Source: Candidatus Pelagibacter ubique HTCC1062
GTDB taxonomy: Bacteria; Pseudomonadota; Alphaproteobacteria; Pelagibacterales; Pelagibacteraceae
DNA length: 32,000 nt
NCBI RefSeq assembly: GCF_000012345.1
Contig: NC_007205.1
Location: forward strand, 750,001 to 782,000
Direction: 5' to 3'
Below the pieces are notes generated by a model. The model made no database searches. It was not told the DNA's origin and saw nothing but the letters and a program-made list of their open reading frames with translations. Made by a program: the position numbers and the translations under genes. Below are positions 13,955 through 24,377 of this stretch, one piece after another (positions within the stretch are counted from its first letter, which is position 1; every line of letters begins with the position of its first letter).

Positions 13955-14959
13955 TTAATCAATCCAATTGGGAAAAGGCAACCCTTTTTCCTCAAGAAAA
14001 GATTTGTTAAACATTTTGGTAGCGTATTTATCACTTTTATCACAAAGAATTGTTACAATAGTTTTTCCAGGACCCAACTCTTTACCCATTCTAATCGCAC
14101 CAGCAATATTAATTCCACAGCTAGTACCAAGGCTTAAGCCTTCATTTTCAATTAAATCATAAAGTATAGGAAGCGCTTCATGGTCATCAATAGAGTAGGC
14201 GTCATCTATCTTAGCATTTTCAAAGTTTTTTGTTACTCTACTTGATCCAATTCCTTCAGTAATTGAACCACCTTCAGATTTTAATTCTCCATTTTTTATA
14301 TAATTGTAAAGAGCAGATCCTTTTGGATCAGATAGAAATATTTTTATATCTTTATTTTTTTCTTTAAGAGCGTTACTTACTCCTGAAATCGTTCCACCTG
14401 TTCCAGATGAACATACAAAACCATCAACTTTACCTTCAGTTTGATCCCAAATTTCTTGTCCTGTTCCTTCATAATGACCCTTAGCATTTGCAACATTGTC
14501 AAACTGATTAGCCCAAACAACACCGTTATTATTTGATGGTCTTAATTCATCAGCAAGTTTTGCTGCAACTTTTACAAAGTTTGCATCATCTTTATAAGGT
14601 TTAGCTGGAACTAGTCTTAAATCAGCACCAATATTTCTAAGAAGATCTTTTTTTTCTTGTGTTTGGTTATCATTCATTACTATGATTGTTTTATAACCAA
14701 GTGAATTACCAAGTAGACATAAGCCAATACCAGTATTACCAGCAGTACCTTCAACAATTGTTCCACCTTTAGAAATTAATTTTTTGGTCTCTGCATCTTT
14801 AATTAAAGCAAGTGCCGCTCTATCTTTTACAGAGCCACCAGGGTTCATAAATTCAGCTTTACCATAAATATTACAACCAGTTATTTCTGATGCAGCTCTA
14901 AGTTTGATTAAAGGAGTGTTACCAATTCCAGAAATAAAATTGTCTTGAATATTTTTCAT
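13955..14959 (-). CDS. cysK: PLP-dependent cysteine synthase-family enzyme (O-acetylserine sulfhydrylase / CBS-like)
   Basis: 334 aa. Motifs: GNTPLI, the NPGGSVKDR PLP-lysine motif, EGTAGNTGIGL and SSGTGGTISG. It is translationally coupled to cysE (TAATG). Confidence 0.85.
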   Translation of the reverse strand: MKNIQDNFISGIGNTPLIKLRAASEITGCNIYGKAEFMNPGGSVKDRAALALIKDAETKKLISKGGTIVEGTAGNTGIGLCLLGNSLGYKTIIVMNDNQTQEKKDLLRNIGADLRLVPAKPYKDDANFVKVAAKLADELRPSNNNGVVWANQFDNVANAKGHYEGTGQEIWDQTEGKVDGFVCSSGTGGTISGVSNALKEKNKDIKIFLSDPKGSALYNYIKNGELKSEGGSITEGIGSSRVTKNFENAKIDDAYSIDDHEALPILYDLIENEGLSLGTSCGINIAGAIRMGKELGPGKTIVTILCDKSDKYATKMFNKSFLEEKGLPFPNWID

Positions 14960-15537
14960 TAGTTTGAAGTATCTTTATCTACCTCTTCTACCGCATAAGG
15001 TTTAAATTCTTCAGTTGCTGTACCAACATTTTTAGCGGGTATTCCAACCATTACTGCATTCTCAGGAACATCTTTAGTTACAACGGCGTTAGCTCCAATT
15101 TTAGCATGAGTGCCAATTATTACAGGGCCTAATATTTGTGCACCAGAACCAACTACAACACAATCACCTAATGTAGGGTGTCTTTTAACTTGTCTTTGGT
15201 CATTTGAATTAATACTTGGCGCAATCCCACCTAAAGTTGCCATATGATAAATGGTTACGTTATTTCCAATTGCTGAAGTTTCACCAATTACAACACCCAT
15301 ACCATGGTCAATAAATAAATTTTTTCCAATTTTAGCACCTGGGTGAATTTCTATTCCAGTTAAAAACCTAGAGAGTTGAGAAATCATTCTTGCAACCAAA
15401 TAAAATTTGGCTAGTTGAAAAAAATTTGCAATTCTGTGAAAAAAAACTGCTTTAACGCCTGGGTAAGTTAAAATTAAACTTAGTTTAGATTTTGCCGCAG
15501 GATCTCTATCAATTATAGATTGTAAAAAGTCGTTCAT
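14959..15537 (-). CDS. cysE: Serine O-acetyltransferase
   Basis: Motifs: [24 protein letters not shown]...[23 protein letters not shown] and hexapeptide repeats. Confidence 0.9.
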
Positions 15538-15611
15538 TATTTGCTAATGTTGATTATAAATTTATAGTGGTTTATATAAGCTTTAAATAAGTAATTTAAA
15601 GAGGAAAATCT

Positions 15612-16022
15612 ATGTACAAAAACACCAACTGTTTTCATTTAGCAATACCTTGTGGCGATTTAGAGAAAGCAAAACATTTTTACAGTGAAATATTAGGGTG
15701 CAGATTAGATAACTCAGCTCAAGAATGGGCAGATGTAGATTTTTGGGGAAATGAATTAACTCTTCACGCAAGCGAGCATAAACTTGAAAGCGAAAGACAT
15801 GATGTTGATATGGGTAACGTTTCTGTTCCTCATTTCGGTGTACATTTATCTAGAGAAAATTTTGATGCTCTTAAAAGTAGACTAAGAGAAAAAAATACTA
15901 AATATTATGACGAACCTTATTTAAGATTTAAAGGAACAAAATATGAGCAAGAAACATTCTTTGTTAAAGATCCTAATGAAAATATTTTAGAGATCAAAAC
16001 ATTAACTGCAAATCCTGGCTAA
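15612..16022 (+). CDS. VOC-family (glyoxalase/bleomycin-resistance/dioxygenase fold) protein
   Basis: 136 aa. FHLAIPCGDLEKAKHFYSEILGC is the typical beta-alpha-beta-beta-beta N-terminal module, and there is a C-terminal F.VKDPNENILEIK. AAAGAGGA sits 7 nt before the ATG. Confidence 0.7.
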   Translation: MYKNTNCFHLAIPCGDLEKAKHFYSEILGCRLDNSAQEWADVDFWGNELTLHASEHKLESERHDVDMGNVSVPHFGVHLSRENFDALKSRLREKNTKYYDEPYLRFKGTKYEQETFFVKDPNENILEIKTLTANPG

Positions 16023-16030
16023 ACTTTTAA

Positions 16031-16501
16031 ATGACAAATAAAGTAGCTGCATACAGTGAAATTTTATATCATTTAATAAATTTTCGAACAGACCAATTCC
16101 AACAATTAAAAAAGATGTTAGGAATTGATTACGATTCTTTCATGATACTTTCTGTTATGGGGGCCCATTATTTAAAACATAGTGATAAGTTAGGATCAGA
16201 TTGGGAAGCTGTATGGAAAAATTTAAGAACATCAAAAATAGAGGAGTTTTATATAGCACGTAAGTTAACAATTTATGCTGTAGCAAATATTTTAAATTTA
16301 CCAAAAGAAACTGTTAGAAGAAAAATAGAAATTTTAAAAAAAAAAAAATTAATAAGTCATTCAACTAAAATGGGTCTTTTACCAACAAACAAAACCGAAG
16401 AAATAATGAAACCTTTTGCTGAAATTGAATTAAAAACTCTTTCAAAATTTCTAAAAAATCTAAAAAAAAATAACACTTTAGAAAAAGTTTTAAATTTCTA
16501 A
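16031..16501 (+). CDS. Hypothetical protein with winged-HTH-like segment (possible MarR-like regulator)
   Basis: 156 aa. LTIYAVANILNLPKETVRRKIEILKKKKLI has the pattern of an HTH recognition unit. The family assignment is tentative. Confidence 0.5.
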   Translation: MTNKVAAYSEILYHLINFRTDQFQQLKKMLGIDYDSFMILSVMGAHYLKHSDKLGSDWEAVWKNLRTSKIEEFYIARKLTIYAVANILNLPKETVRRKIEILKKKKLISHSTKMGLLPTNKTEEIMKPFAEIELKTLSKFLKNLKKNNTLEKVLNF

Positions 16502-16516
16502 TATTTGTAATACCTT

Positions 16517-16553
16517 TAAAACCTATTTTGGGTCTATAAAACCTAAATTGGGT
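16517..16553. repeat. Tandem 17-nt direct repeat (20-nt period) between the HTH-like gene and the barrel gene; second copy doubles as a weak terminator stem
   Basis: TAAAACCTATTTTGGGT (16517-33) and TAAAACCTAAATTGGGT (16537-53) match at 15 of 17 positions. Each has AACC..GGT dyad character. The second is followed by T9 (16553-61). Confidence 0.4.
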
Positions 16554-16599
16554 TTTTTTTTATTATCAATTTTTTTTTATTTTTATAATAATCTGTTTA

Positions 16600-17475
16600 A
16601 TGAAATTTATAAAAATATTTTTAACATCACTCTGTTTAATAATCACAACTGTAGCTAATGCAGATGTAGCCTCTCAAGCTTTAAATAAAGTATCTGAAAA
16701 AATATCAAATTTAATCCCAGGTGAAGGAATTACTGAAGTATCTTTAGATTATAATGATGGTGATGAGGATCAGCTTAACTTCTCAATATTAGGGGTAAGA
16801 GATATTGAAACAACAGATAACTCTAATTTTTTTACTCAATTTAGTTTGATGAACCAGGAAATAAACAGTTCCGGAAGAATTATTGGAAACATAGGCTTAG
16901 GTTATAGAAAACTATCTGAAGATAAAAATTTTATGTTTGGCGCAAATACTTTCTACGATAGAGATTTAACAGAGGGTCAAGACAGATTAGGCCTTGGTAT
17001 TGAAGCTAAAGGTTCAATTTTAGATTTAACTGCAAATAGCTATACAAAAATTTCAAACTCTGAAGTTGTTAATGGTGATAGAGAGCAAGTTTTATCTGGT
17101 TGGGATTTTAACTTAACATCTCAAATTCCAAGAGCACCATGGGCTAGAATTAATTATAATGGTTATAAATGGGAAACTGAAAAAGGATCTGCTGATCAAA
17201 AAGGTAATATTTATTCTCTAGAACTAGATGTAACAAACTCAGTAGAAGTTGTTGCAAGTTTAGACAAATCCTCACTAAATGGTGTGGATGATGAAACTTC
17301 TTTAAGTATTAATTATATTTATCCACCAAAAGAAAAATCTATGGTGATGTCTGACGGTTTATCAAATGACATGTTTGAAAAAAGTAACATGGAACAAAAA
17401 TTAAAAGAAAAAGTTAGAAGAAGAAATAAACTAGTAATGGAAATTCAGGGAGCAGTCGTCATGACTAAAAAATAA
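16600..17475 (+). CDS. Inverse-autotransporter (intimin/invasin-type) beta-barrel domain protein without passenger domain
   Basis: Signal peptide MKFIKIFLTSLCLIITTVANA|DV. Its motif order matches the intimin beta-domain as I recall it: FFTQFSL, GNIGLGYR, GANTFYDRDL, RLGLGIEAKG..LDLTANSY, GWDFNLTSQIP..PWARINYNGYKWE, and a terminal RRRNKLVMEIQG linker-like segment. The ORF ends 7 residues later. Confidence 0.7.
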   Translation: MKFIKIFLTSLCLIITTVANADVASQALNKVSEKISNLIPGEGITEVSLDYNDGDEDQLNFSILGVRDIETTDNSNFFTQFSLMNQEINSSGRIIGNIGLGYRKLSEDKNFMFGANTFYDRDLTEGQDRLGLGIEAKGSILDLTANSYTKISNSEVVNGDREQVLSGWDFNLTSQIPRAPWARINYNGYKWETEKGSADQKGNIYSLELDVTNSVEVVASLDKSSLNGVDDETSLSINYIYPPKEKSMVMSDGLSNDMFEKSNMEQKLKEKVRRRNKLVMEIQGAVVMTKK

Positions 17476-17479
17476 TATT

Positions 17480-18199
17480 ATGATAAAAAATCTATTTTCT
17501 AAACTAATCATTTTTTCTTTTTATTTAATTTTCACAAATAGTTTATATGCAGCAGAAAATGTTAAAGGACCAGCAACAGAATATATAATAACAATGACTA
17601 AAGTCGAAATATGCGAAAGTGGCAGCACAATAGCAAATTGTTTAAATCCTATTGATATAACAACTGGTAATGGTGCAACAGCCGACATAGCTTCAGTAGA
17701 AGCTGGAGTAACAGCAGCAACAGTTGCAGATTTTGGAAAAGCTACATTAGGAAAAACTTATACGTATATTCAAACAACCATGTCAAGAGCAATGACGATA
17801 ACAGGAACTGCAGGAAATTGTAAAACTAAAGCAGGTATAAACGGGTCTTTAGGTGGTTCTGCAGGAGGTGCAGCAGTTGGTCATACTGGTACAGCGGGCT
17901 CTGCAATATTATATGTTCCGCACTTTACGCAGGATACTGCAAATTATTCTATGATGGAGGGATCAAATGCTGACGGTAGTTCATTGGCTACATTAGCAAC
18001 TGTAAGAACAACTGATACACATTTTAGATCAAGACAAATTTTAACATCACCTTACACTCCTGTTGCTGGATCAAGCCCTACAGTTTTTGTAGCATTTGAC
18101 ACTTCAGTTGCCGTAAATGAAGTTGATGATGCAAGTTGTACTGATGCTGGACTTCAAGCTGCACCACCTACAGTAACTCTAACAGTTCAAGGTCAGTAA
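17480..18199 (+). CDS. Secreted Thr/Ala/Gly-rich hypothetical protein
   Basis: Starts 4 nt after the preceding stop. Signal peptide ...FTNSLYA|AENV. The mature part has four Cys (45, 54, 114, 220). Its composition differs sharply from the Lys/Ile/Asn-rich neighbours. I recognise no family. Confidence 0.7.
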   Translation: MIKNLFSKLIIFSFYLIFTNSLYAAENVKGPATEYIITMTKVEICESGSTIANCLNPIDITTGNGATADIASVEAGVTAATVADFGKATLGKTYTYIQTTMSRAMTITGTAGNCKTKAGINGSLGGSAGGAAVGHTGTAGSAILYVPHFTQDTANYSMMEGSNADGSSLATLATVRTTDTHFRSRQILTSPYTPVAGSSPTVFVAFDTSVAVNEVDDASCTDAGLQAAPPTVTLTVQGQ

Positions 18200-18205
18200 T
18201 TTTCT

Positions 18206-19159
18206 TTGAAAAAATTATTAGTATTCTTTTTAACCTTCTTTTTTTCTAATTTAACTTTTGCAGCAGACGAAAAACCTGGAAGGTTTTTTGAAGACCAGCC
18301 TGATGTAACAGATGACCATCAAATTCACTTTATATATTTATTACCATCTGATGGTGAAGACAGAGAGCTAGATATAAATGGTAGCATGGAAAGTATTTTA
18401 GAAAAAGTAAACAATACAATGTTTGAAGCTACAAAAGCAAATAAGGGTTCAGGTGGGTTAGGTAAAAAATACAGATATGATTACAGAAAAGATGGAAAAC
18501 TAGATATCACATTTATTAGAACCAGTAAAAACTGGAAAGAATTACAAGATAAAAGTGTTAACACTCAAATGGGTCATTATTTCAATCAAGTTGGTGGTTT
18601 TAACAATAAAAAGAAAACATATTTCCTATGGACCGATGTTGATAGAGGAAATCATGGTGGAGATGCTGGTGTTGGAATAGGTGGAATATTTGTTAAAAGT
18701 AATGGTAGATCTGGAGATGTAATGAAACATGAAAAAGATTTTTTAAATATTAACCTTCATGAGATTTTGCATACTCAATTAATGGGAATTAAATGTATTA
18801 AAGGTATGGGAAAAATTCATTATTCAAATCATTCAAATAGTGGTGATAATCATATGCTTAGTAGTGGAACTAAGTTAAATAAAAATTTATATACCCATAA
18901 TATTGAAGGATGTCCTCAGCTTATAGATAGCGTTTATCTAACACCAACCTCAGAAGATCCATACAATCCTTATGAGATAATGTGTGAAAGAAATCTTGGA
19001 AAATACACTCACCCTAAGTTAGTTAAAATAATGCAAAAAGCTAAAAAATCTAACAAGTGGTATAAAAATAGAATTGCACCAACTTGCAATTGGAGAGACT
19101 GGACTGGAAAATTTGCAAAGTCTGGAGAAAAGTTTGGTTTCTTTGGTGAGATGAAATAA
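18206..19159 (+). CDS. Secreted hypothetical protein with HExxH motif (putative zinc metallopeptidase-like)
   Basis: TTG start 6 nt after the preceding stop. Signal peptide MKKLLVFFLTFFFSNLTFA|AD. HEILH lies at residues 185-189 (nt 18758-18772). Several Cys and His lie downstream. Confidence 0.65.
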   Translation: MKKLLVFFLTFFFSNLTFAADEKPGRFFEDQPDVTDDHQIHFIYLLPSDGEDRELDINGSMESILEKVNNTMFEATKANKGSGGLGKKYRYDYRKDGKLDITFIRTSKNWKELQDKSVNTQMGHYFNQVGGFNNKKKTYFLWTDVDRGNHGGDAGVGIGGIFVKSNGRSGDVMKHEKDFLNINLHEILHTQLMGIKCIKGMGKIHYSNHSNSGDNHMLSSGTKLNKNLYTHNIEGCPQLIDSVYLTPTSEDPYNPYEIMCERNLGKYTHPKLVKIMQKAKKSNKWYKNRIAPTCNWRDWTGKFAKSGEKFGFFGEMK

Positions 19160-19201
19160 ATCTTGCTTTAGCACACTTAAGATATTAGCTTTAAATCTTA
19201 A

Positions 19202-20683
19202 ATGACAATCGACTATAAAAAAATTTCTAAAAATCTAAAATTTGAAGGCAGAGCTTTTATTGATGGTAAATACGTTGATGCCATTGATGGTGAAAAATTT
19301 GAAAATATAAATCCTGCAACGGGTGAAACTCTTTGTTCAGTTTCAAAATGTAATCATAAAGATGTTGATTTAGCAGTTAAAGTTTCAAGAAAGGCTTTTA
19401 ATAGTGGTGTTTGGTCTAGAACATCTCCAGAATTTAGAAAAGATGTCTTACTGAAATTTGCAGAATTATTAAGAAAAACTGGTGAAGAAAATTCTGTTCT
19501 TGAATGTGTAGATACAGGAAAATTAATTGGAGACTGCATTAATGAGGTTGCAAATGATGCGCCAATGCATTTTCAGTGGTATGGAGAATTAATAGATAAA
19601 GTATTTGGTAAAGTTGGACCAACAGAACCATCACTAACTAGTTTAATTGTTAAAGAACCAATTGGTGTTGTTGCTGGAGTTGTTCCTTGGAATTTCCCTT
19701 TAATGATGGCAGTTTGGAAAATGGCACCAGCATTAGCTGCAGGATGCTCTGTTATAATTAAACCAGCAGAAGATACACCTTTAACAGCAATTAGAGTTGC
19801 TCAAATTGCAAAAGAAGCAGGTATTCCAGATGGAGTTTTAAATGTATTACCTGGCTTTGGTGATGTTGGTGAAGCACTTGGTAGACATGATGATGTTGAT
19901 GCAGTTTCATTTACTGGCTCAACAGAAGTAGGTGGACTGTTCATGAAATATTCTGGTGAAAGTAATTTAAAGACAATTGGTTTAGAGATGGGTGGTAAAA
20001 GTCCGTTCATCGTTTTAGAAGATGCAAAGATTACAGATAATTTAATTGATAATGCAATTAATTCTGCCTTTTGGAATGGTGGACAGAACTGCTCTGCAAA
20101 TATGAGGCAAATAATTCACACTAAAGTTAAAGATGAATTTTTAGATAAAGTTTCCAAAAAAGTAAAAGCTCTTAAAGCTGGAGATCCATTAGATCCAAGT
20201 TCAAACATGGGGTCAATGATTTCTAAAAAACATTTAGCAACAGTTGATGGTTATATTCAAAAAGGAATTGATGAAGGTGCCAAATTATTATTTGGAGGAG
20301 TTTCAAGTAAAGATCAAAAAGGCTTTTTTGCAAAACCAACTCTATTTGATGATTTAAAAGAGAACATGACAATTGCTCAAGAAGAAATTTTTGGACCAGT
20401 ACTTGGTGTTCTTACAATCAATAGTGACGAAGAAGCTTTGAAAATTGCAAGTAATTCAAAGTATGGATTGCACGCAAGTGTTTTTACTCAAGATATTGAT
20501 AGAGCTTTTCATATGGCAAAAAGTTTACCTTGTGGAACTGTTTCAGTTAATACTTTTTCTGAAGGTGATATTAAAACACCTTTTGGTGGATACAGACAGT
20601 CTGGTTCATTGAGTAGAGATCAAGGTACAGAAGCTCTGGACCAATACCTTCAAACCAAGACTATTTGGATTAGTCATTCATAA
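19202..20683 (+). CDS. NAD(P)-dependent aldehyde dehydrogenase, PuuC-like (gamma-glutamyl-gamma-aminobutyraldehyde dehydrogenase-type)
   Basis: 493 aa. Motifs: VPWNFPL, FTGSTEVG, the catalytic Glu in LEMGGKSP, the catalytic Cys in GGQNCSA, EEIFGPV and PFGGYRQSG. The C-terminal KTIWIS matches E. coli PuuC as I recall it. Confidence 0.9.
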   Translation: MTIDYKKISKNLKFEGRAFIDGKYVDAIDGEKFENINPATGETLCSVSKCNHKDVDLAVKVSRKAFNSGVWSRTSPEFRKDVLLKFAELLRKTGEENSVLECVDTGKLIGDCINEVANDAPMHFQWYGELIDKVFGKVGPTEPSLTSLIVKEPIGVVAGVVPWNFPLMMAVWKMAPALAAGCSVIIKPAEDTPLTAIRVAQIAKEAGIPDGVLNVLPGFGDVGEALGRHDDVDAVSFTGSTEVGGLFMKYSGESNLKTIGLEMGGKSPFIVLEDAKITDNLIDNAINSAFWNGGQNCSANMRQIIHTKVKDEFLDKVSKKVKALKAGDPLDPSSNMGSMISKKHLATVDGYIQKGIDEGAKLLFGGVSSKDQKGFFAKPTLFDDLKENMTIAQEEIFGPVLGVLTINSDEEALKIASNSKYGLHASVFTQDIDRAFHMAKSLPCGTVSVNTFSEGDIKTPFGGYRQSGSLSRDQGTEALDQYLQTKTIWISHS

Positions 20684-20724
20684 AAAGATAAATAATATTA
20701 GGGATTATAAGTAGATAATTTTCT

Positions 20725-20754
20725 TTGACTTGCTCAAAAGTTTTAAGTTATGCT
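20725..20754 (+). promoter_or_regulatory. Candidate sigma-70-type promoter of proX
   Basis: TTGACT (20725-30), an 18-nt spacer, then TATGCT (20749-54), about 30 nt upstream of the proX ATG. Such matches arise easily in AT-rich DNA. Confidence 0.3.
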
Positions 20755-20784
20755 AGTTTTTTTAAATTAATCGAGAGGGATATA

Positions 20785-21747
20785 ATGAAAATAATAAAAA
20801 CTACACTTGTAGCTGGTTTGATTTCTTTATTTGCTACTTTTTCAACATTTGCTGAGAAAGTTAAAATTGGAGATCCAGGTTGGACAGGTGCAACAGCTAT
20901 TGCAAATTTATTAGCAGCAGTTGTTAATGACAAAATGGGTGGAGAAGCAGAATTAGTTCCAGGAAATAATACTGCAATCTACGCAGCAATTGATAGAAGC
21001 AAAGGTGAGATAGAAGTTCACCCTGATATCTGGCTACCTAATCAACAGGCTTATACTAACGATCTAGTTCCTAAAGGAACTCTTAAGTTAAGTTCAAAAC
21101 CTTATGAAGGAAACCAAGGATATTGTGTGTCTCAACAATTTGCTAAAAAAATGAATATTACAGCAATTGAAGACTTAGCTAGACCAGAAGTTGTTAAAGC
21201 AATGGACAGTGACGGAAATGGTAAAGGTGAGTTTTGGATTGGTGCTGATGGATGGGCTTCTGCAAATGTAAACCAAGTAAAACTTAGAGATTACGGTTTA
21301 TACGATGCAGGCATTGAAGCAATCAGAGCTGCTGAAGCTGTAAAAAATGCAAGAGTGCTTGACTCTATTAAAAAAGGTGAAGGTTATGCATTTTATTGTT
21401 ACAAGCCACATGCAATTTGGGGAATGGCTGATGTAGTTATGTTAACTGAACCTAAGTTCGATGAAGCAAAATACAAAATGGTTCAGCCTAAAGAAGATGC
21501 TGATTGGTACAAAAAATCTTATGTTGCATCAAAAGATGCTCTTAAGCAAATCCAAATCGGTTGGGGAACTTCTTTAGAAGCAAAGTCACCAGCGATTGTT
21601 GATTTCTTTAAGAACTTTCAATTGTCAGCAGACGATGTTTCATTAATGGCTTTTCAAATTTCAGTTGAGAAAAAAGATCCAGCTGATGTTGCTAGAACAT
21701 GGATGAAAAACAATAAGTCTAAAGTTGATGGTTGGTTAGGCCTTTAA
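20785..21747 (+). CDS. proX: Glycine betaine/proline betaine ABC transporter substrate-binding protein
   Basis: The ATG at 20785 is preceded by GAGAGGGA; the track start at 20725 is an upstream extension. Signal peptide ...FSTFA|EKV. The segments GDPGWTGATAIANLL, DSDGNGKGEFWIGADGWASANVNQ and a C-terminal VDGWL parallel E. coli ProX. Confidence 0.85.
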   Translation: MKIIKTTLVAGLISLFATFSTFAEKVKIGDPGWTGATAIANLLAAVVNDKMGGEAELVPGNNTAIYAAIDRSKGEIEVHPDIWLPNQQAYTNDLVPKGTLKLSSKPYEGNQGYCVSQQFAKKMNITAIEDLARPEVVKAMDSDGNGKGEFWIGADGWASANVNQVKLRDYGLYDAGIEAIRAAEAVKNARVLDSIKKGEGYAFYCYKPHAIWGMADVVMLTEPKFDEAKYKMVQPKEDADWYKKSYVASKDALKQIQIGWGTSLEAKSPAIVDFFKNFQLSADDVSLMAFQISVEKKDPADVARTWMKNNKSKVDGWLGL

Positions 21748-21762
21748 GTTAAACTAAATTTT

Positions 21763-21789
21763 ACCCGGCAACCAAATTTGTTGCCGGGT
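21763..21789 (+). terminator. Intercistronic GC-rich hairpin (partial terminator / mRNA-stabilising element) between proX and proV
   Basis: Perfect 10-bp stem: ACCCGGCAAC (21763-72) pairs with GTTGCCGGGT (21780-89) around the loop CAAATTT. ATATTTCTTT follows. Confidence 0.6.
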
Positions 21790-21829
21790 ATATTTCTTTA
21801 AAAAATTATTAAATTTTCGAACGGACTTG

Positions 21830-22879
21830 ATGGACTCAGCTATAGAAATAAAAAATGTTTGGAAGATTTTTGGCAACACTTCTGTGGAAGCATTAAATGC
21901 CATTCAAAATAATCGTATTTCAAAACAAGAAGCTTTAGAAAAATATAATTCAGTAATTGGTGTATCAGATGTCTCTTTTGACGTTAAAAAAGGAGAAATA
22001 TTCTGTGTAATGGGTCTTTCAGGAAGTGGTAAATCCACTTTAGTGAGACATATCAATAGATTACTAGAACCTACTTCAGGACAAATTTTGATCGATAATG
22101 AAGATGTAATGAAGTTTGATCCAAAAAGTTTACAAGATTTAAGGAATAAAAAGATAGGCATGGTTTTTCAAAACTTTGCTCTAATGCCTCACCGATCAGT
22201 TTTAGACAATATAGCAATGCCGCTTGAAATAAGAGGTATTAGTAAAAATGATAGATTGGATGCTGCTAATAAGATTTTAGATATTGTGGAACTTCAAGGT
22301 TGGGGAAATAAATTTGCCCATGAACTTTCAGGTGGAATGCAACAAAGAGTAGGATTAGCTAGAGCTTTAGCAGCGGATCCTGATGTTTTATTAATGGATG
22401 AACCTTTTAGTGCACTAGACCCATTAATAAGAAGACAGCTTCAAGCAGAATTTATCAAACTTTCAAAACAAATGAAAAAGACTACAGTATTTATAACTCA
22501 TGATTTAGATGAAGCAGTAAGAGTGGGTCATAGAATTGCTATCATGAGAGATGGAAAAGTTATCCAAATAGGAACACCAGAAGAAATAGTAATGAAACCA
22601 GCAGATGATTATGTTGCTGATTTTGTAAAAGGAATATCTAGATTAAAAATTATTCAAGCAAAATCTATCATGCAGCCTGTTGAGAAATTTGAAAAAGAAT
22701 TTGGATTAATATCAAAAAATTTAGAAAGCGTTCATGAAAATGATTTACTAAATAAGTTGATAGAAAAATCCTCTATTAAGGATGAGCCGATATTAGTAAT
22801 TAATAATGAAAACAAAAATATTGGTATAATAACACAGGCAGAATTATTAAAAGCTGTTGTAGAGGGTAGTGATGGATAA
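21830..22879 (+). CDS. proV: Glycine betaine/proline ABC transporter ATP-binding protein with C-terminal CBS-like region
   Basis: Walker A GLSGSGKST, signature LSGGMQQRVGLARAL, Walker B LLMDEPFSALD, and ITHDLDEA. A C-terminal extension of about 80 aa is typical of ProV/OpuAA. A TTG at 21827 is an alternative start. Confidence 0.9.
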   Translation: MDSAIEIKNVWKIFGNTSVEALNAIQNNRISKQEALEKYNSVIGVSDVSFDVKKGEIFCVMGLSGSGKSTLVRHINRLLEPTSGQILIDNEDVMKFDPKSLQDLRNKKIGMVFQNFALMPHRSVLDNIAMPLEIRGISKNDRLDAANKILDIVELQGWGNKFAHELSGGMQQRVGLARALAADPDVLLMDEPFSALDPLIRRQLQAEFIKLSKQMKKTTVFITHDLDEAVRVGHRIAIMRDGKVIQIGTPEEIVMKPADDYVADFVKGISRLKIIQAKSIMQPVEKFEKEFGLISKNLESVHENDLLNKLIEKSSIKDEPILVINNENKNIGIITQAELLKAVVEGSDG

Positions 22880-24377
22880 TAAAGCAAACAGAAACCCATC
22901 AAGAGATGAATTAATTACTGACTTTGTAAAAAGTAATCCAGACTATTATATTAAAGAGTTTAAAAAAATTGGTAGCAAGCCTACTTACTCATTTTCATTT
23001 AATTTATTTGCATTCATATTTGGACCAATTTGGTTTGGAATGCGTAATATTTGGAATTGGACTTTAGCTTTTTTAATTATTGAAACTTTTTCAGTAGTAC
23101 AAATAATCAGAGGTTTATTTGGTAATATTACGGCAGAGGCCATTGCTAAAGTTGAACAAGTAAAAAGCACTATAGCCTTTAGAAATAAACAATTAGAAGC
23201 TGCGATAGAAAATAATCCAGACAAAATTGATGTCTTTGAAAGAAACATAAAATCCTTAGAGGATGCTATGCAAGGTTATTTAGATGAAATTACGAGAATA
23301 GAAGCTTCAGCAATTTGGATAGCAATTTTTGGTTTTATTTTATTGATAGGAATTAAAATTGTTCAGGGTGTTTTGGCAAATTCAATTTTAGAAAAGAAAT
23401 ATTCTGAATGGTTATCCGATAAATCTATTCATCCAGGGATGCAGATGAAAAATTATATTTTAAGTGGTGTTTTTACCTCTGTTATAATGATTTTTACAGT
23501 TATCCATTACAGTTTTCCGGGCTTACTTCAGATAATGGATACGTTCCCAACACATCCTGAAATAAGATTATTTTCAATTAAATGGATAGAAATTGTTTTT
23601 GATTATGCCGTTGTTAAAGGAGATTTAATTTTTACAGCTATAACAATTGGTATTAGGTCCGTATTAGATTTCTTAGAATTATTGTTTGTTAAAACTCCTT
23701 GGATTGTAATTATAACTGCAATTGTAACTTTAACTGGGTTATCTGCAGGACCCAGGGCTGCAATTTATTCTACAGGATTTTTATGTTACATGGGTTTTTT
23801 AGGTTTCTGGGTTAAAGCAATGACTACACTTGCCTTATTAGGAACTGCTGCAGTTTTAAGTATAGCAATTGGAATTCCGCTTGGAATTTTCTGTGCAAGA
23901 CGACAAAGATTTTATTCATTAATTAGACCGATAATGGATTTCATGCAAACAATGCCAGCTTTTGTATTTATGATTCCAGTAATAGCGTTTTTTGGAACTG
24001 GAAAGGTTGCAGCAGTAATTATTACAATGATTTTTGGTGGTACACCTGTTGTAAGACTTACAGTTTTAGGGTTACGTGGAGTGCCAGAAACAATTCGAGA
24101 AGCTGCTATCGCATACGGTGCAACTAAATGGTATTTGCTGAGAAAAGTAGATCTGCCACTAGCTACACCTTCAATTTTAGCAGGTGTGAACCAAACAGTA
24201 ATGTTAAGTTTAGCCATGGTAGTTGTAGCATCTCTAATCGGTGCAAAAGGTTTAGGTCAAGATGTTCTTGAGGCATTGCAATATGCTAATGTTGGACAAG
24301 GTATACTTGCGGGTATAGCTATTTTATTTGTTGCATTAATACTTGATAGGGTTGTTCAGGGTAAAAAAAGAGTTTAA
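22872..24377 (+). CDS. proW: Glycine betaine/proline ABC transporter permease with N-terminal DUF2628-like membrane domain
   Basis: The C-terminal 280 aa or so form a BPD-type permease with the EAA loop EAAIAYGATKWYLLRKVDLPLATPSILAGVNQ. The N-terminal 200 aa or so are an extra domain. The ATG at 22872 is preceded by GAGGG and overlaps the proV stop. Confidence 0.9.
   Translation: MDNKANRNPSRDELITDFVKSNPDYYIKEFKKIGSKPTYSFSFNLFAFIFGPIWFGMRNIWNWTLAFLIIETFSVVQIIRGLFGNITAEAIAKVEQVKSTIAFRNKQLEAAIENNPDKIDVFERNIKSLEDAMQGYLDEITRIEASAIWIAIFGFILLIGIKIVQGVLANSILEKKYSEWLSDKSIHPGMQMKNYILSGVFTSVIMIFTVIHYSFPGLLQIMDTFPTHPEIRLFSIKWIEIVFDYAVVKGDLIFTAITIGIRSVLDFLELLFVKTPWIVIITAIVTLTGLSAGPRAAIYSTGFLCYMGFLGFWVKAMTTLALLGTAAVLSIAIGIPLGIFCARRQRFYSLIRPIMDFMQTMPAFVFMIPVIAFFGTGKVAAVIITMIFGGTPVVRLTVLGLRGVPETIREAAIAYGATKWYLLRKVDLPLATPSILAGVNQTVMLSLAMVVVASLIGAKGLGQDVLEALQYANVGQGILAGIAILFVALILDRVVQGKKRV

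What the first reader, a model, noticed from the sequence alone, without database searches (positions are those of the whole stretch)
16600..19159. Passenger-less inverse-autotransporter barrel heading a three-gene operon of Sec-exported orphans: possible split surface-display or secretion module
**The barrel protein.** The 291-aa product of 16600-17475 has a cleavable signal peptide. It then shows a colinear series of motifs that I recognise from the intimin/invasin beta-domain:
- FFTQFSL
- GNIGLGYR
- GANTFYDRDL
- RLGLGIEAKG..LDLTANSY
- GWDFNLTSQIP..PWARINYNGYKWE

It ends with RRRNKLVMEIQG. This resembles the ..QRNNNIILEY.. linker that threads the barrel pore in intimin.

**What is missing.** In characterised inverse autotransporters the linker is followed by a long Ig-like or lectin passenger. 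Here the ORF stops 7 residues later. There is also no LysM or other periplasmic domain.

**The partners.** Two separate genes follow on the same strand after spacers of 4 nt and 6 nt. Each encodes a protein with its own signal peptide. One is a beta-rich-looking Thr/Ala/Gly protein and the other an HExxH protein.

**Interpretations.**
- The barrel is an outer-membrane pore or anchor for separately exported partners, i.e. a two-partner version of type Ve secretion.
- The barrel has been recruited as a porin.
- The module is a decayed adhesin.

Any adhesin-type machinery would be unexpected in a streamlined planktonic genome.
Basis: partly seen in the sequence, partly recalled or inferred. Interest (0 to 1): 0.8.

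Follow-up and report, generated by a model that had tools for sequence, protein, structure and literature searches.

The report
Passenger-less autotransporter barrel with hypervariable partner
A marine SAR11-type genome carries a small gene cluster in which an outer-membrane barrel of the intimin/invasin type, lacking its usual surface domain, is always paired with a separately exported, highly variable protein, which looks like a minimal two-piece cell-surface system in a very abundant ocean bacterium.

Summary
Gene 16600-17475 is a true inverse-autotransporter (type Ve) beta-domain: Pfam IAT_beta E 1.7e-33, and an AlphaFold model that matches invasin and intimin at TM 0.80. It ends about 7 residues after the pore linker.

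It is not a truncated adhesin. Its length is conserved in hundreds of relatives, and dN/dS is 0.05-0.20.

- **Regulator:** a winged-helix regulator-like gene (16031-16501).
- **Operator-like site:** a conserved palindrome 61 nt, and here also 81 nt, before the barrel start.
- **Barrel:** the passenger-less barrel itself.
- **g2:** a Sec-exported all-beta orphan. It follows the barrel in 69 of 70 loci, including organisms of 37-63% GC.
- **g3:** the HExxH protein. It is optional, following in 27 of 42 loci, and also occurs alone.

The new finding is that g2 is hypervariable. Barrels 95-98% identical pair with g2 proteins only 42-73% identical. The break falls exactly at the barrel's last 7 codons.

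My best reading (about 0.5) is a minimal two-partner type Ve display or secretion module for a variable surface protein. The two-partner idea itself is already published (ZirTSU; Heinz 2016), so this is a new variant of a known kind.

The parts
16031..16501 (+). hth: a 156-aa cytoplasmic winged-helix-like protein, the putative dedicated regulator of the module
   Evidence: - A homolog lies directly upstream of the barrel in 40 of 42 loci with enough upstream sequence.
- BLASTP to the upstream genes of L001 and L007 gives E 3e-23 and 4e-22.
- Only weak HTH/wHTH hits were found, all over residues ~76-117.
- No signal peptide.
- Two deep allelic classes track the two chromosomal sites.
16336..16348 (+). 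A13 homopolymer inside hth (codons for KKKK)
   Evidence: The tract is A13 and the frame intact in 20 loci of this hth class. It is A12 in L023 and A11 in L095, and both are frameshifted exactly there. This could be phase variation or assembly error; I could not resolve which.
16519..16533 (+). Palindromic 15-mer AAACCTATTTTGGGT, the distal copy, 81 nt before the barrel start codon; operator-like
   Evidence: It is present at -81 only in loci with the window-type hth class. The window holds 2 exact copies, both here.
16539..16553 (+). Palindromic 15-mer AAACCTAAATTGGGT, the proximal copy, 61 nt before the barrel start codon; operator-like
   Evidence: A copy (up to 2 mismatches) sits at -59 to -63 in nearly all loci. 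This holds for both hth classes and for barrels only 47-53% identical. In L007 it is a perfect inverted repeat, ACCTA-N3-TAGGT.
16600..17475 (+). Passenger-less inverse-autotransporter (type Ve) beta-domain, 291 aa.
- Signal peptide: aa 1-21 (16600-16662)
- Periplasmic helix: aa 21-38
- 12-stranded barrel: aa 43-241 (16726-17322)
- Helix plus pore linker: aa 264-283 (17389-17448)
   Evidence: - Pfam IAT_beta E 1.7e-33.
- AF2 model with pLDDT 86.6.
- Foldseek: invasin 4e1t TM 0.80 and intimin 4e1s TM 0.79.
- dN/dS 0.05-0.20.
- KVRRxNxI...E motif conserved across 33 diverse relatives.
17452..17472 (+). C-terminal tail AVVMTKK (aa 285-291), predicted to emerge at the cell surface; it varies together with the g2 allele
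   Evidence: - pLDDT below 50 in the model.
- The tail variant co-segregates with g2 class across 46 pairs.
- Against 9 loci with 95-98% identical barrels, nucleotide identity falls from 93-100% to 63-80% in the bin 17440-17469, and lower beyond it.
17480..18199 (+). g2: a 239-aa Sec-exported, all-beta, Thr/Ala/Gly/Ser-rich orphan with 4 conserved Cys. It is the obligate, hypervariable partner of the barrel. The signal peptide is about aa 1-25 (17480-17554). The most variable stretches are aa ~121-140, 151-180 and 211-220.
   Evidence: - Follows the barrel within 150 nt in 69 of 70 loci, and also in distant loci of 37-63% GC.
- AF2 model with pLDDT 83.2, all-beta, and no PDB or BFVD fold match.
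- Entropy 1.28 bits against 0.15 for the barrel.
- 17 classes among 46 pairs.
- dN/dS 0.16-0.50.
18206..19159 (+). g3: a 317-aa Sec-exported orphan with invariant HExxH (H185-H189 = 18758-18772) and 4 conserved Cys. It is a putative zinc hydrolase and an optional downstream member of the module.
   Evidence: - The family alignment has invariant H185, E186, H189, H205 and H231, plus C197, C236, C260 and C294.
- Follows g2 directly in 20 of 42 loci and within 700 nt in 7 more.
- Occurs alone in L009-L016.
- No Pfam, NCBIfam or PDB relative.
16016..18206 (.). Presence/absence segment (hth + barrel + g2) relative to otherwise syntenic genomes
   Evidence: L009 aligns to window 13961-16015 and 18207-24152 at 88% identity, with only about 20 nt between those blocks. 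In L009-L012 and 17 similar places, g3 follows the glyoxalase gene directly.

Best explanation
This is a self-contained cell-envelope module of four parts.
1. A winged-helix regulator-like protein, which I infer binds the conserved palindrome 61 nt (and here also 81 nt) upstream of the barrel gene.
2. A barrel-only inverse autotransporter. It inserts into the outer membrane and keeps its own helix and linker in the pore, so that only a 7-residue beta-strand-like tail shows at the surface.
3. g2, exported separately to the periplasm by Sec. I infer it is the barrel's cognate cargo or partner. It reaches the surface with the help of its own barrel and stays attached there or is released, as in ZirT/ZirS two-partner type Ve secretion. 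There it acts as a variable surface protein under diversifying selection, for example from phages or grazers.
4. g3, an optional accessory exported HExxH hydrolase.

**Shown:**
- the barrel's family and fold;
- the strict barrel-g2 pairing;
- the regulator gene and the palindrome;
- the hypervariability and cassette-like exchange of g2 plus the barrel tail;
- purifying selection on both genes.

**Inferred:**
- outer-membrane crossing and surface exposure of g2;
- contact between the tail and g2;
- DNA binding by hth;
- enzymatic activity of g3.
For: **Barrel identity and retained pore elements**
- Family and fold.
- The model keeps the loop hairpin (155-164) and the linker strand (280-283). 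Together these match the small extracellular beta-sheet that intimin needs for stability and secretion (PMC13078405).
- The barrel-only architecture is conserved and under purifying selection.

**Strict pairing**
- g2 follows the barrel in 69 of 70 loci that were recruited by barrel similarity alone.
- It also follows barrels of 26-37% identity in organisms of 37-63% GC.

**One barrel per partner**
- Tandem duplications copy the pair as a unit. Each g2 paralog keeps its own barrel, about 50% identical to the other (L001, L038).
- The relative reading frame of the two genes varies between loci, and g2 always has its own signal peptide. They are therefore separate proteins.

**g2 looks extracytoplasmic and exposed**
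- It has a Sec signal, 4 conserved Cys, 48.6% TAGS and 2.8% Lys in a Lys-rich proteome, and is acidic.
- It is hypervariable next to near-identical barrels.
- The switch point lies at the EIQG/tail boundary in 9 of 9 comparisons.

**Cassette exchange**
- The barrel-g2 pair is swapped between conserved hth and g3 arms. L092 has hth 96% and g3 79% identical, but barrel 49% and g2 38%.

**Precedent**
- ZirT is an outer-membrane inverse-autotransporter barrel required for secretion of the Sec-exported ZirS, encoded immediately downstream (PMC2270342).
- Heinz et al. generalise this to 'two-partner inverse autotransporters' (PMC4943183).

**Regulation**
- hth is upstream in 40 of 42 loci, and palindrome copy number tracks hth class.
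Against: - There is no experimental or structural evidence that g2 leaves the periplasm.
- In the model the 12-stranded lumen is filled by the barrel's own linker. How ZirT-type barrels pass a second protein is itself unresolved (discussion in PMC4943183).
- g2 has four conserved cysteines, two of them about 100 residues apart (C114, C220). From my own knowledge of type V secretion, large disulfide-closed loops block passage through autotransporter barrels. A protein oxidised in the periplasm would therefore fit badly.
- g2 shows no similarity to IgSF passengers or to anything in PDB or BFVD. The barrel has no IgSF domain, so the ZirT/ZirS feature of translocator-substrate homology is absent.
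- The tail-g2 association could be simple hitch-hiking, since the tail lies only 7 codons from g2 and is the first unconstrained sequence.
- Hypervariability is suggestive of surface exposure but does not prove it.
- Most loci come from one lineage (SAR11-like), so the counts are not independent events.
Confidence: 0.5

Rival explanations
1. Docking platform without translocation. g2 folds and forms its disulfides in the periplasm. It then either stays bound to the periplasmic face of the barrel (N-terminal helix, turns) or is exported folded by another route such as a type II system. In the second case it docks onto the barrel's surface tail and loops. The barrel is an anchor, not a channel.
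For: - g2 has conserved Cys pairs, including a long-range pair.
- The lumen is occupied by the linker in the model.
- The tail co-varies with g2 class.
- There is one barrel per g2 paralog in tandem duplications.
- A barrel-less invasin-like adhesin is known to be a type II secretion substrate in Acinetobacter (InvL; PMC9245377, title and abstract listing).
Against: - Strictly periplasmic proteins are rarely hypervariable.
- No type II secretion genes are linked to the module in the loci examined.
- The barrel's periplasmic parts are short: one helix and no LysM.
- Nothing here tests either route.
Confidence: 0.27
2. The barrel has been recruited as a small porin or channel. g2 and g3 are periplasmic or secreted proteins that work on the solute passing through it, such as a binding protein and a hydrolase. 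The clustering reflects a shared substrate rather than secretion.
For: - After invasin and intimin, the model's next Foldseek matches are 12-stranded channels (FapF, COG4313, KdgM-type porins) at TM 0.44-0.68.
- g3 carries a hydrolase-like HExxH.
Against: - The helix/linker motif KVRRxNxI...E that plugs the pore is among the best conserved parts of the family.
- A nutrient channel would not be expected to need a hypervariable partner exchanged as a cassette.
- g3 is dispensable.
- g2 resembles no known binding protein.
Confidence: 0.08
3. Decayed or truncated adhesin. The barrel is the remnant of a full-length intimin-like protein, and the downstream ORFs are fragments or unrelated genes.
For: None beyond the absence of a passenger.
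Against: - The 120 best relatives listed are almost all 288-292 aa.
- 94 of 116 representatives at 50% identity end within 15 residues of the barrel.
- dN/dS is 0.05-0.20 for the barrel and 0.16-0.50 for g2.
- g2 has its own conserved signal peptide, and the frame relation to the barrel varies.
- No barrel-g2 fusion exists among the 508 proteins held.
Confidence: 0.02
4. The clustering with g3 is the functional core. g3 is a secreted metalloprotease whose export or activation depends on the barrel and g2, so the first reader's three genes form one obligate system.
For: - g3-family genes follow g2 in 27 of 42 loci, at two different chromosomal sites, and next to barrels only 43-53% identical.
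- The spacer is 6 nt, and no terminator-like site was found between the genes.
Against: - g3 is absent from 15 of 42 loci, including long contigs (L001, L002, L036).
- It is disrupted in L071.
- It is present without hth, barrel or g2 in L009-L016 and 17 similar places.
- There is no profile similarity between g2 and g3 beyond the signal peptide.
Confidence: 0.1

Closest known systems
ZirT/ZirS/ZirU of Salmonella and the 'two-partner inverse autotransporters' of Heinz et al. 2016 (SinH/SinI, Yfr4/Rat-like)
   Same: - An inverse-autotransporter barrel gene is followed immediately by genes for Sec-exported proteins that lack a barrel.
- ZirS secretion strictly needs ZirT (PMC2270342).
- The concept of type Ve barrels serving separate substrates is published (PMC4943183).
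   Different: - ZirT is 660 aa and carries C-terminal IgSF domains homologous to its substrates. Here the barrel has a 7-residue tail, and the partner has no detectable IgSF or other known fold.
- The host is a free-living marine oligotroph, not an enteric pathogen.
- The partner is hypervariable and exchanged as a cassette.
- A dedicated regulator-like gene and an operator-like site accompany the pair.
Intimin and invasin beta-domains (PDB 4e1s, 4e1t)
   Same: - Pfam family IAT_beta.
- 12-stranded barrel.
- Periplasmic helix plus linker through the pore.
- A small extracellular beta-sheet formed by a loop hairpin and the linker end (PMC13078405).
   Different: - No LysM domain.
- No D00/Big passenger; the protein stops about 7 residues after the linker.
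- 17-21% identity to the two structures over the Foldseek alignments.
'invasin_beta-only' clade with very short C-terminal extension (Heinz et al. 2016, PMC4943183, sections 9-10)
   Same: The architecture is the same. My representative search shows this is the dominant architecture around the query, in 94 of 116 clusters.
   Different: In the sections I read, that paper does not describe a conserved downstream partner family, its hypervariability, or SAR11 members. I could not check which organisms its clade contains.
Classical two-partner secretion, type Vb (FhaC/FHA)
   Same: Logic only: a separate outer-membrane transporter and a Sec-exported cargo, encoded side by side.
   Different: TpsB proteins are 16-stranded Omp85 barrels with POTRA domains, and TpsA cargo carries a TPS domain. 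Neither was detected here.
FapF (Pseudomonas functional-amyloid secretion barrel)
   Same: - A 12-stranded plugged barrel that exports separately encoded, Sec-dependent, Thr/Ala/Gly-rich subunits, from an operon that also encodes a protease.
- It is the next-best structural match after invasin and intimin (TM about 0.5).
   Different: - No sequence relationship.
- g2 is predicted to be a folded, disulfide-containing beta protein. I saw no obvious repeats by eye and ran no repeat search.
- The analogy rests on my own knowledge of the Fap system.

Membership tests
Inverse autotransporter beta-domain (type Ve; Pfam IAT_beta PF11924) | Significant match to the family profile above the curated cutoff | tested here: met
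   E 1.7e-33, 116.8 bits against a 22.3 cutoff, profile positions 24-279 of 279. Partial NCBIfam hits to SinH, Inv and YchO models.
Inverse autotransporter beta-domain (type Ve; Pfam IAT_beta PF11924) | 12-stranded outer-membrane barrel fold like intimin and invasin | tested here: met
   The AF2 model has 12 long strands and pLDDT 86.6. Foldseek gives 4e1t E 6.8e-16 with TM 0.80, and 4e1s with TM 0.79. This is a prediction, not a solved structure.
Inverse autotransporter beta-domain (type Ve; Pfam IAT_beta PF11924) | Inverted order: signal peptide, then barrel, then helix/linker returning through the pore and pairing with an extracellular loop hairpin | tested here: met
   Helix 264-269, strand 280-283 and hairpin 155-164 in the model. 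The KVRRxNxI...E motif is conserved in 33 relatives. The tool returns no coordinates, so the position inside the pore is inferred from homology.
Inverse autotransporter adhesin (intimin/invasin/FdeC type) | Covalently attached C-terminal passenger (Big/IgSF, lectin) displayed on the surface | tested here: not met
   Only about 7 residues follow the linker. No further Pfam domain was found. The same holds in 94 of 116 related clusters.
Inverse autotransporter adhesin (intimin/invasin/FdeC type) | Periplasmic LysM or other peptidoglycan-binding domain (present in many members, not all) | tested here: not met
   No LysM hit. Only a helix at residues 21-38 precedes the barrel.
Two-partner inverse autotransporter (ZirTSU type) | Barrel gene directly followed by gene(s) for Sec-exported, barrel-less protein(s) | tested here: met
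   4-nt and 6-nt spacers. g2 follows in 69 of 70 loci. Signal peptides are conserved in the g2 and g3 alignments.
Two-partner inverse autotransporter (ZirTSU type) | Translocator carries IgSF domain(s) homologous to the substrates | tested here: not met
   The barrel has no C-terminal domain. g2 has no PDB or BFVD fold match and no Pfam hit. g2 and g3 are unrelated to each other.
Two-partner inverse autotransporter (ZirTSU type) | Secretion of the partner depends on the barrel | not testable with these tools
   This needs genetics and fractionation. Only co-occurrence, co-duplication and co-variation were measured.
Classical two-partner secretion (type Vb) | Omp85/TpsB barrel with POTRA domains, and a TPS domain in the cargo | tested here: not met
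   No such Pfam or NCBIfam hits in any of the four proteins.
Zinc metallopeptidase (for g3) | Conserved HExxH zinc-binding motif | tested here: met
   H185, E186 and H189 are invariant in 20 diverse homologs. Further invariant residues are H205, H231 and D241.
Zinc metallopeptidase (for g3) | Match to a curated peptidase family or a zincin fold | tested here: not met
   No Pfam, NCBIfam or PDB sequence match. Only single-member weak hits to DUF6782 and SprT-like.
Winged-helix transcription regulator (for hth) | Significant match to a curated HTH family | tested here: inconclusive
   Many weak hits, all over residues ~76-117: HTH_Crp_2 E 0.0017, and Csa3/CasR wHTH E about 1e-3. None reaches a curated cutoff. 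The conserved palindrome nearby supports the role indirectly.

The most novel reading that the evidence does not exclude
This would be a split inverse autotransporter. The barrel's 7-residue surface tail acts as a class-specific docking or donor strand. It holds a separately exported, hypervariable protein of a previously unseen fold on the cell surface.

That exchangeable barrel-tail/g2 cassette, present at two chromosomal sites and sometimes in tandem, would be a major variable protein surface determinant of SAR11 cells. It would be shaped by phage or grazer pressure and switched by its own regulator.
Probability: 0.2. Interest if true: 0.85.

Novelty: new variant of a known kind. Interest (0 to 1): 0.62.

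Why it matters
**For type V secretion.** How an inverse-autotransporter barrel can serve a separate protein (the ZirT problem) is unresolved. This family strips the system down to a 270-residue barrel with a 7-residue tail and one 215-residue partner. It also offers natural allelic series in which the tail and the partner change together. That makes the question directly testable by tail swaps, co-expression in E. coli, and structures of the pair.

**For marine microbiology.** SAR11 is the most abundant heterotroph in the surface ocean, and its known hypervariable regions mostly encode surface polysaccharide functions (PMC2217521). A widespread, recombining, protein-based variable locus with its own regulator would be a candidate determinant of phage or grazer susceptibility, and a marker of fine-scale population structure.

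**New families.** The analysis also defines two orphan families, g2 and g3, and a conserved cis element.

Tried and rejected
**An inference I made and then revised**
- From I first concluded that g3 was only a resident neighbour, with hth-barrel-g2 inserted upstream of it.
- The 80 metagenome loci showed g3-family genes after g2 at two different sites and next to very divergent barrels.
- I therefore now treat g3 as an optional member rather than an unrelated gene.

**Searches that gave nothing**
- Fold searches of the g2 model against PDB and BFVD: best E 1.2 and 0.28, TM below 0.2.
- Profile searches of g2 and g3 against PDB sequences.
- Pfam scan of 20 g3 homologs.
- PADLOC and PHROGs for all four proteins. 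The only notable hits were the wHTH part of hth and a partial barrel match to phrog_7803, of unknown function (E 3.1e-12).
- Rfam on the whole window.
- g2 in viral contigs.
- A distant g2 in plasmids.
- Terminator scan: none in 15400-19400.
- The promoter-like hits are not informative in such AT-rich DNA.

**Technical dead ends**
- Co-folding the barrel with g2 was not attempted.

**Other points**
- Entropy is only slightly higher in predicted extracellular loops than in periplasmic turns (1.05 against 0.91 bits). I draw no conclusion from that.
- I looked for barrel-g2 fusions as a Rosetta-stone link and found none among the 508 proteins held.
- HVR1 of strain HTCC1062 lists alternating 'autotransporter' and 'unknown' genes next to a regulator (PMC2217521, PMC2704228). 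I could not check whether these belong to this family. The regulator there is on the opposite strand.

Full report
**1.

ORFs at 16600-17475 (291 aa), 17480-18199 (239 aa) and 18206-19159 (317 aa, TTG start) lie on the + strand. The spacers are 4 nt and 6 nt.

The first protein hits Pfam IAT_beta (PF11924) at E 1.7e-33 over profile positions 24-279 of 279. It also hits the invasin beta-domain 4e1t by sequence at E 9.5e-11.

An AlphaFold2 model built on 33 diverse relatives (pLDDT 86.6, pTM 0.80) has these elements:
- a signal-peptide helix and a short helix at residues 21-38;
- twelve long strands between residues 43 and 241;
- a hairpin at 155-164 in one loop;
- a helix at 264-269 and a short strand at 280-283;
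- a disordered tail at 285-291.

Its best structural matches are invasin 4e1t (E 6.8e-16, TM 0.80) and intimin 4e1s (TM 0.79). Other 12-stranded barrels such as FapF follow far behind, at TM about 0.5.

The hairpin plus the linker-end strand correspond to the small extracellular beta-sheet that was recently shown to be essential for intimin stability and secretion (PMC13078405). No LysM or other domain is present.

**2. It is not a truncated copy**

- The 90%-clustered database holds 959 relatives. The 120 best are almost all 288-292 aa, and one cluster has 1026 member sequences.
- In the 50%-identity representative library there are 1465 hits.
- Among the 116 listed representatives whose match reaches the end of the barrel, 94 have at most 15 residues after it, 11 have 16-23, and 11 carry longer extensions of 63-1275 residues.
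- An alignment of 33 relatives down to 26% identity shows a conserved C-terminal KVRRxNxI...E motif followed by a short hydrophobic tail.
- Pairwise dN/dS for the barrel is 0.05-0.20.

Heinz et al. [quoted passage not shown]

**3. The real unit**

I recruited loci by barrel similarity alone: 4 from species genomes and 80 from metagenomes. I then scored all six-frame segments with HMMs for the four proteins.

| Test | Result |
|---|---|
| g2 follows the barrel within 150 nt | 69 of 70 barrels with at least 300 nt downstream |
| Homolog of the 156-aa ORF (16031-16501) directly upstream | 40 of 42 |
| g3-family gene directly after g2 | 20 of 42 |
| g3-family gene within 700 nt after g2 | 7 more of 42 |
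| No g3-family gene after g2 | 15 of 42 |

In the 7 'within 700 nt' cases the gene appears to be an N-terminally extended paralog, like the 445-aa protein of L003. Three of the 15 loci without g3 are first members of tandem barrel-g2 pairs.

The upstream protein matches its counterparts in L001 and L007 at BLASTP E 3e-23 and 4e-22. It has only weak winged-helix hits, over residues ~76-117.

The pairing extends far beyond SAR11. g2 homologs of 27-38% identity (P0233, P0236, P0238) sit directly after an IAT_beta barrel. Barrel-only relatives from contigs of 37-63% GC are likewise followed by g2 homologs (L101, L018, L005, and the partial L102 and L100).

**4. g3 is optional**

- The closest g3 homolog (P0241, 85% identity) lies in contigs syntenic with the window but lacking hth, barrel and g2.
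- L009 aligns to window 13961-16015 and 18207-24152 at 88% identity, so window 16016-18206 is a clean presence/absence segment.
- More distant g3 homologs also occur without the barrel.
- L070 at the window's site has g2 followed directly by the aldehyde dehydrogenase gene, and g3 is split in L071.
- Even so, g3-family genes follow g2 at two different chromosomal sites and next to barrels only 43-53% identical (L004, L083, L086, L092). The association is therefore recurrent.
- g3 has an invariant HExxH and four conserved Cys, but no Pfam, NCBIfam or PDB relative.
- g2 and g3 are unrelated to each other apart from their signal peptides.

**5. A conserved cis element**

The 98-nt hth-barrel spacer holds two copies of AAACCTAWWTTGGGT, at 16519-16533 and 16539-16553.

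- Across loci, a copy sits 59-63 nt before the barrel start in almost every case.
- This holds in both hth classes and before barrels only 47-53% identical.
- In L007 it is a perfect ACCTA-N3-TAGGT inverted repeat.
- The second copy, at -81, occurs only with the window-type hth class.

I infer that this is the operator of the hth protein.

**6. g2 is a hypervariable orphan**

- **Basic features:** g2 has a conserved signal peptide and four conserved Cys: C45, C54, C114 and C220.
- **Composition:** it is 48.6% Thr/Ala/Gly/Ser and only 2.8% Lys, with pI 4.7. Its gene is the most GC-rich of the seven genes I compared around it (0.372).
- **Fold:** its AF2 model (pLDDT 83.2, pTM 0.77) is all-beta with several 12-15-residue strands. 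It has no match in PDB or BFVD.
- **Variability:** barrels 95-98% identical to the window's are paired with g2 proteins only 42-73% identical.
- **Entropy:** in the 16 pairs whose barrels are at least 90% identical, mean column entropy is 0.15 bits for the barrel and 1.28 for g2.
- **Classes:** the 46 complete pairs hold 17 g2 classes at 70% identity.
- **Still functional:** g2 is under purifying selection within classes, with dN/dS 0.16-0.50.

The barrel's last seven residues co-segregate with g2 class. Examples are AVVMTKK or SVVLTKK, SVIVTKQ, SVILTRK, SIIMTKQ and SIILTSK on barrels that are otherwise 97% identical. In nine of nine nucleotide comparisons, identity drops from 93-100% to 63-80% in the bin 17440-17469. 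That bin covers the boundary between EIQG and the tail. Identity stays low into g2.

Larger swaps also occur. L092 shares hth at 96% and g3 at 79%, but its barrel is 49% and its g2 38% identical.

The module occupies two chromosomal sites, each in about two dozen loci:
- between the glyoxalase and aldehyde dehydrogenase genes, as in the window;
- between a hexapeptide-repeat or 380-aa gene and a pyridoxamine-oxidase-like gene.

Each site has its own hth class. Near-identical barrels are found at both sites.

L001 and L038 carry tandem barrel-g2 pairs. The two barrels are about 50% identical, and each is followed by its own g2.

**7. Interpretation**

The shown facts are:
- strict pairing;
- duplication and exchange as a pair;
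- one barrel per g2 paralog;
- a partner with extracytoplasmic hallmarks and cassette-like hypervariability;
- a variable tail at the only part of the barrel predicted to protrude from the cell.

These fit a two-piece type Ve system. In it, the barrel-only protein is the outer-membrane translocator and/or anchor for a variable surface protein. The precedent is ZirT/ZirS: ZirT is an outer-membrane barrel of this family, and ZirS is Sec-dependent and secreted only when ZirT is present (PMC2270342). Heinz et al. generalised this to two-partner inverse autotransporters (PMC4943183, sections 11-12).

The differences are substantial. There is no IgSF domain on the barrel and no homology between barrel and partner. 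The partner has a new fold, the organisms are free-living marine bacteria, and the locus has its own regulator.

The main objections are these:
- In the model the lumen is filled by the barrel's own linker.
- g2's conserved cysteines would, from general knowledge of type V secretion, hinder threading after oxidation.
- The tail-g2 linkage may be hitch-hiking.

I therefore give about 0.5 to barrel-assisted surface display or secretion. I give about 0.27 to a docking-only or periplasmic-complex variant, and small probabilities to the porin and g3-centred readings. The decayed-adhesin reading is rejected.

**8. Novelty**

These were already known:
- barrel-only IAT proteins;
- the two-partner concept.

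I found no mention of the following in the papers I searched and read:
- the conserved g2 partner family;
- its hypervariability together with the barrel tail;
- the regulator and palindrome;
- the optional HExxH family;
- the prevalence of the module in SAR11-like populations.

No paper in the library links SAR11 to inverse autotransporters. Source annotations say only 'hypothetical protein' or 'adhesin/invasin'. I rate this a new variant of a known kind.

Noticed in passing
window 16336-16348: There is an A13 run inside the hth gene (KKKK codons). It is A13 and in frame in 20 related loci. It is A12 in L023 and A11 in L095, and both are frameshifted exactly at the tract. This may be slipped-strand on/off switching of the regulator, or an assembly error.
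   Followed up: partly
L001 4253-7599; L038 306-3646: These loci carry tandem duplicated barrel-g2 pairs. The two barrels are about 50% identical, and each is followed by its own g2 of a different class.
   Followed up: partly
L003 8558-9895 (also L023, L034, L063, L088, L093, L098): L003 has a second, longer g3 paralog of 445 aa. It has an extra N-terminal region of about 140 residues and is 36% identical to the window's g3. In L003 it follows the 315-aa g3-like gene. In the other listed loci a similar partial g3-family match lies about 500 nt after g2, in some before a canonical g3 copy.
   Followed up: no
L004 90-200 versus window 16600-16710: L004 is labelled as a Rhodobacterales MAG. Its barrel is only 51% identical overall, yet its first 36 residues are identical to the window's, and it has the same pair of upstream palindromes. 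This points to a recombination breakpoint inside the barrel's N-terminal helix, and probably to a mis-binned SAR11-like contig.
   Followed up: no
window 16600-17475 versus 17480-19159 (comparison with L020): Synonymous divergence between the window and L020 is 0.09 in the barrel but 0.81 in g2 and 0.98 in g3. The barrel gene itself seems to have spread recently across diverged backgrounds, including between the two chromosomal sites.
   Followed up: partly
literature: HTCC1062 genes SAR11_0042-0047 (hypervariable region HVR1): Wilhelm et al. 2007 list alternating 'autotransporter' and 'unknown' genes next to a transcription regulator in HVR1 (PMC2217521). Meyer et al. 2009 give the strands (PMC2704228). 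This may be the same kind of module in the type strain. I could not test it, and the regulator there is divergently oriented.
   Followed up: partly
representatives P0378, P0382, P0384, P0386 (alignment A4): Several distant barrel-only relatives have N-terminal extensions of 50-150 residues, and some carry lipobox-like signal peptides (for example LVGCSS, LSGCSS). This suggests lipidated variants of the passenger-less barrel.
   Followed up: no
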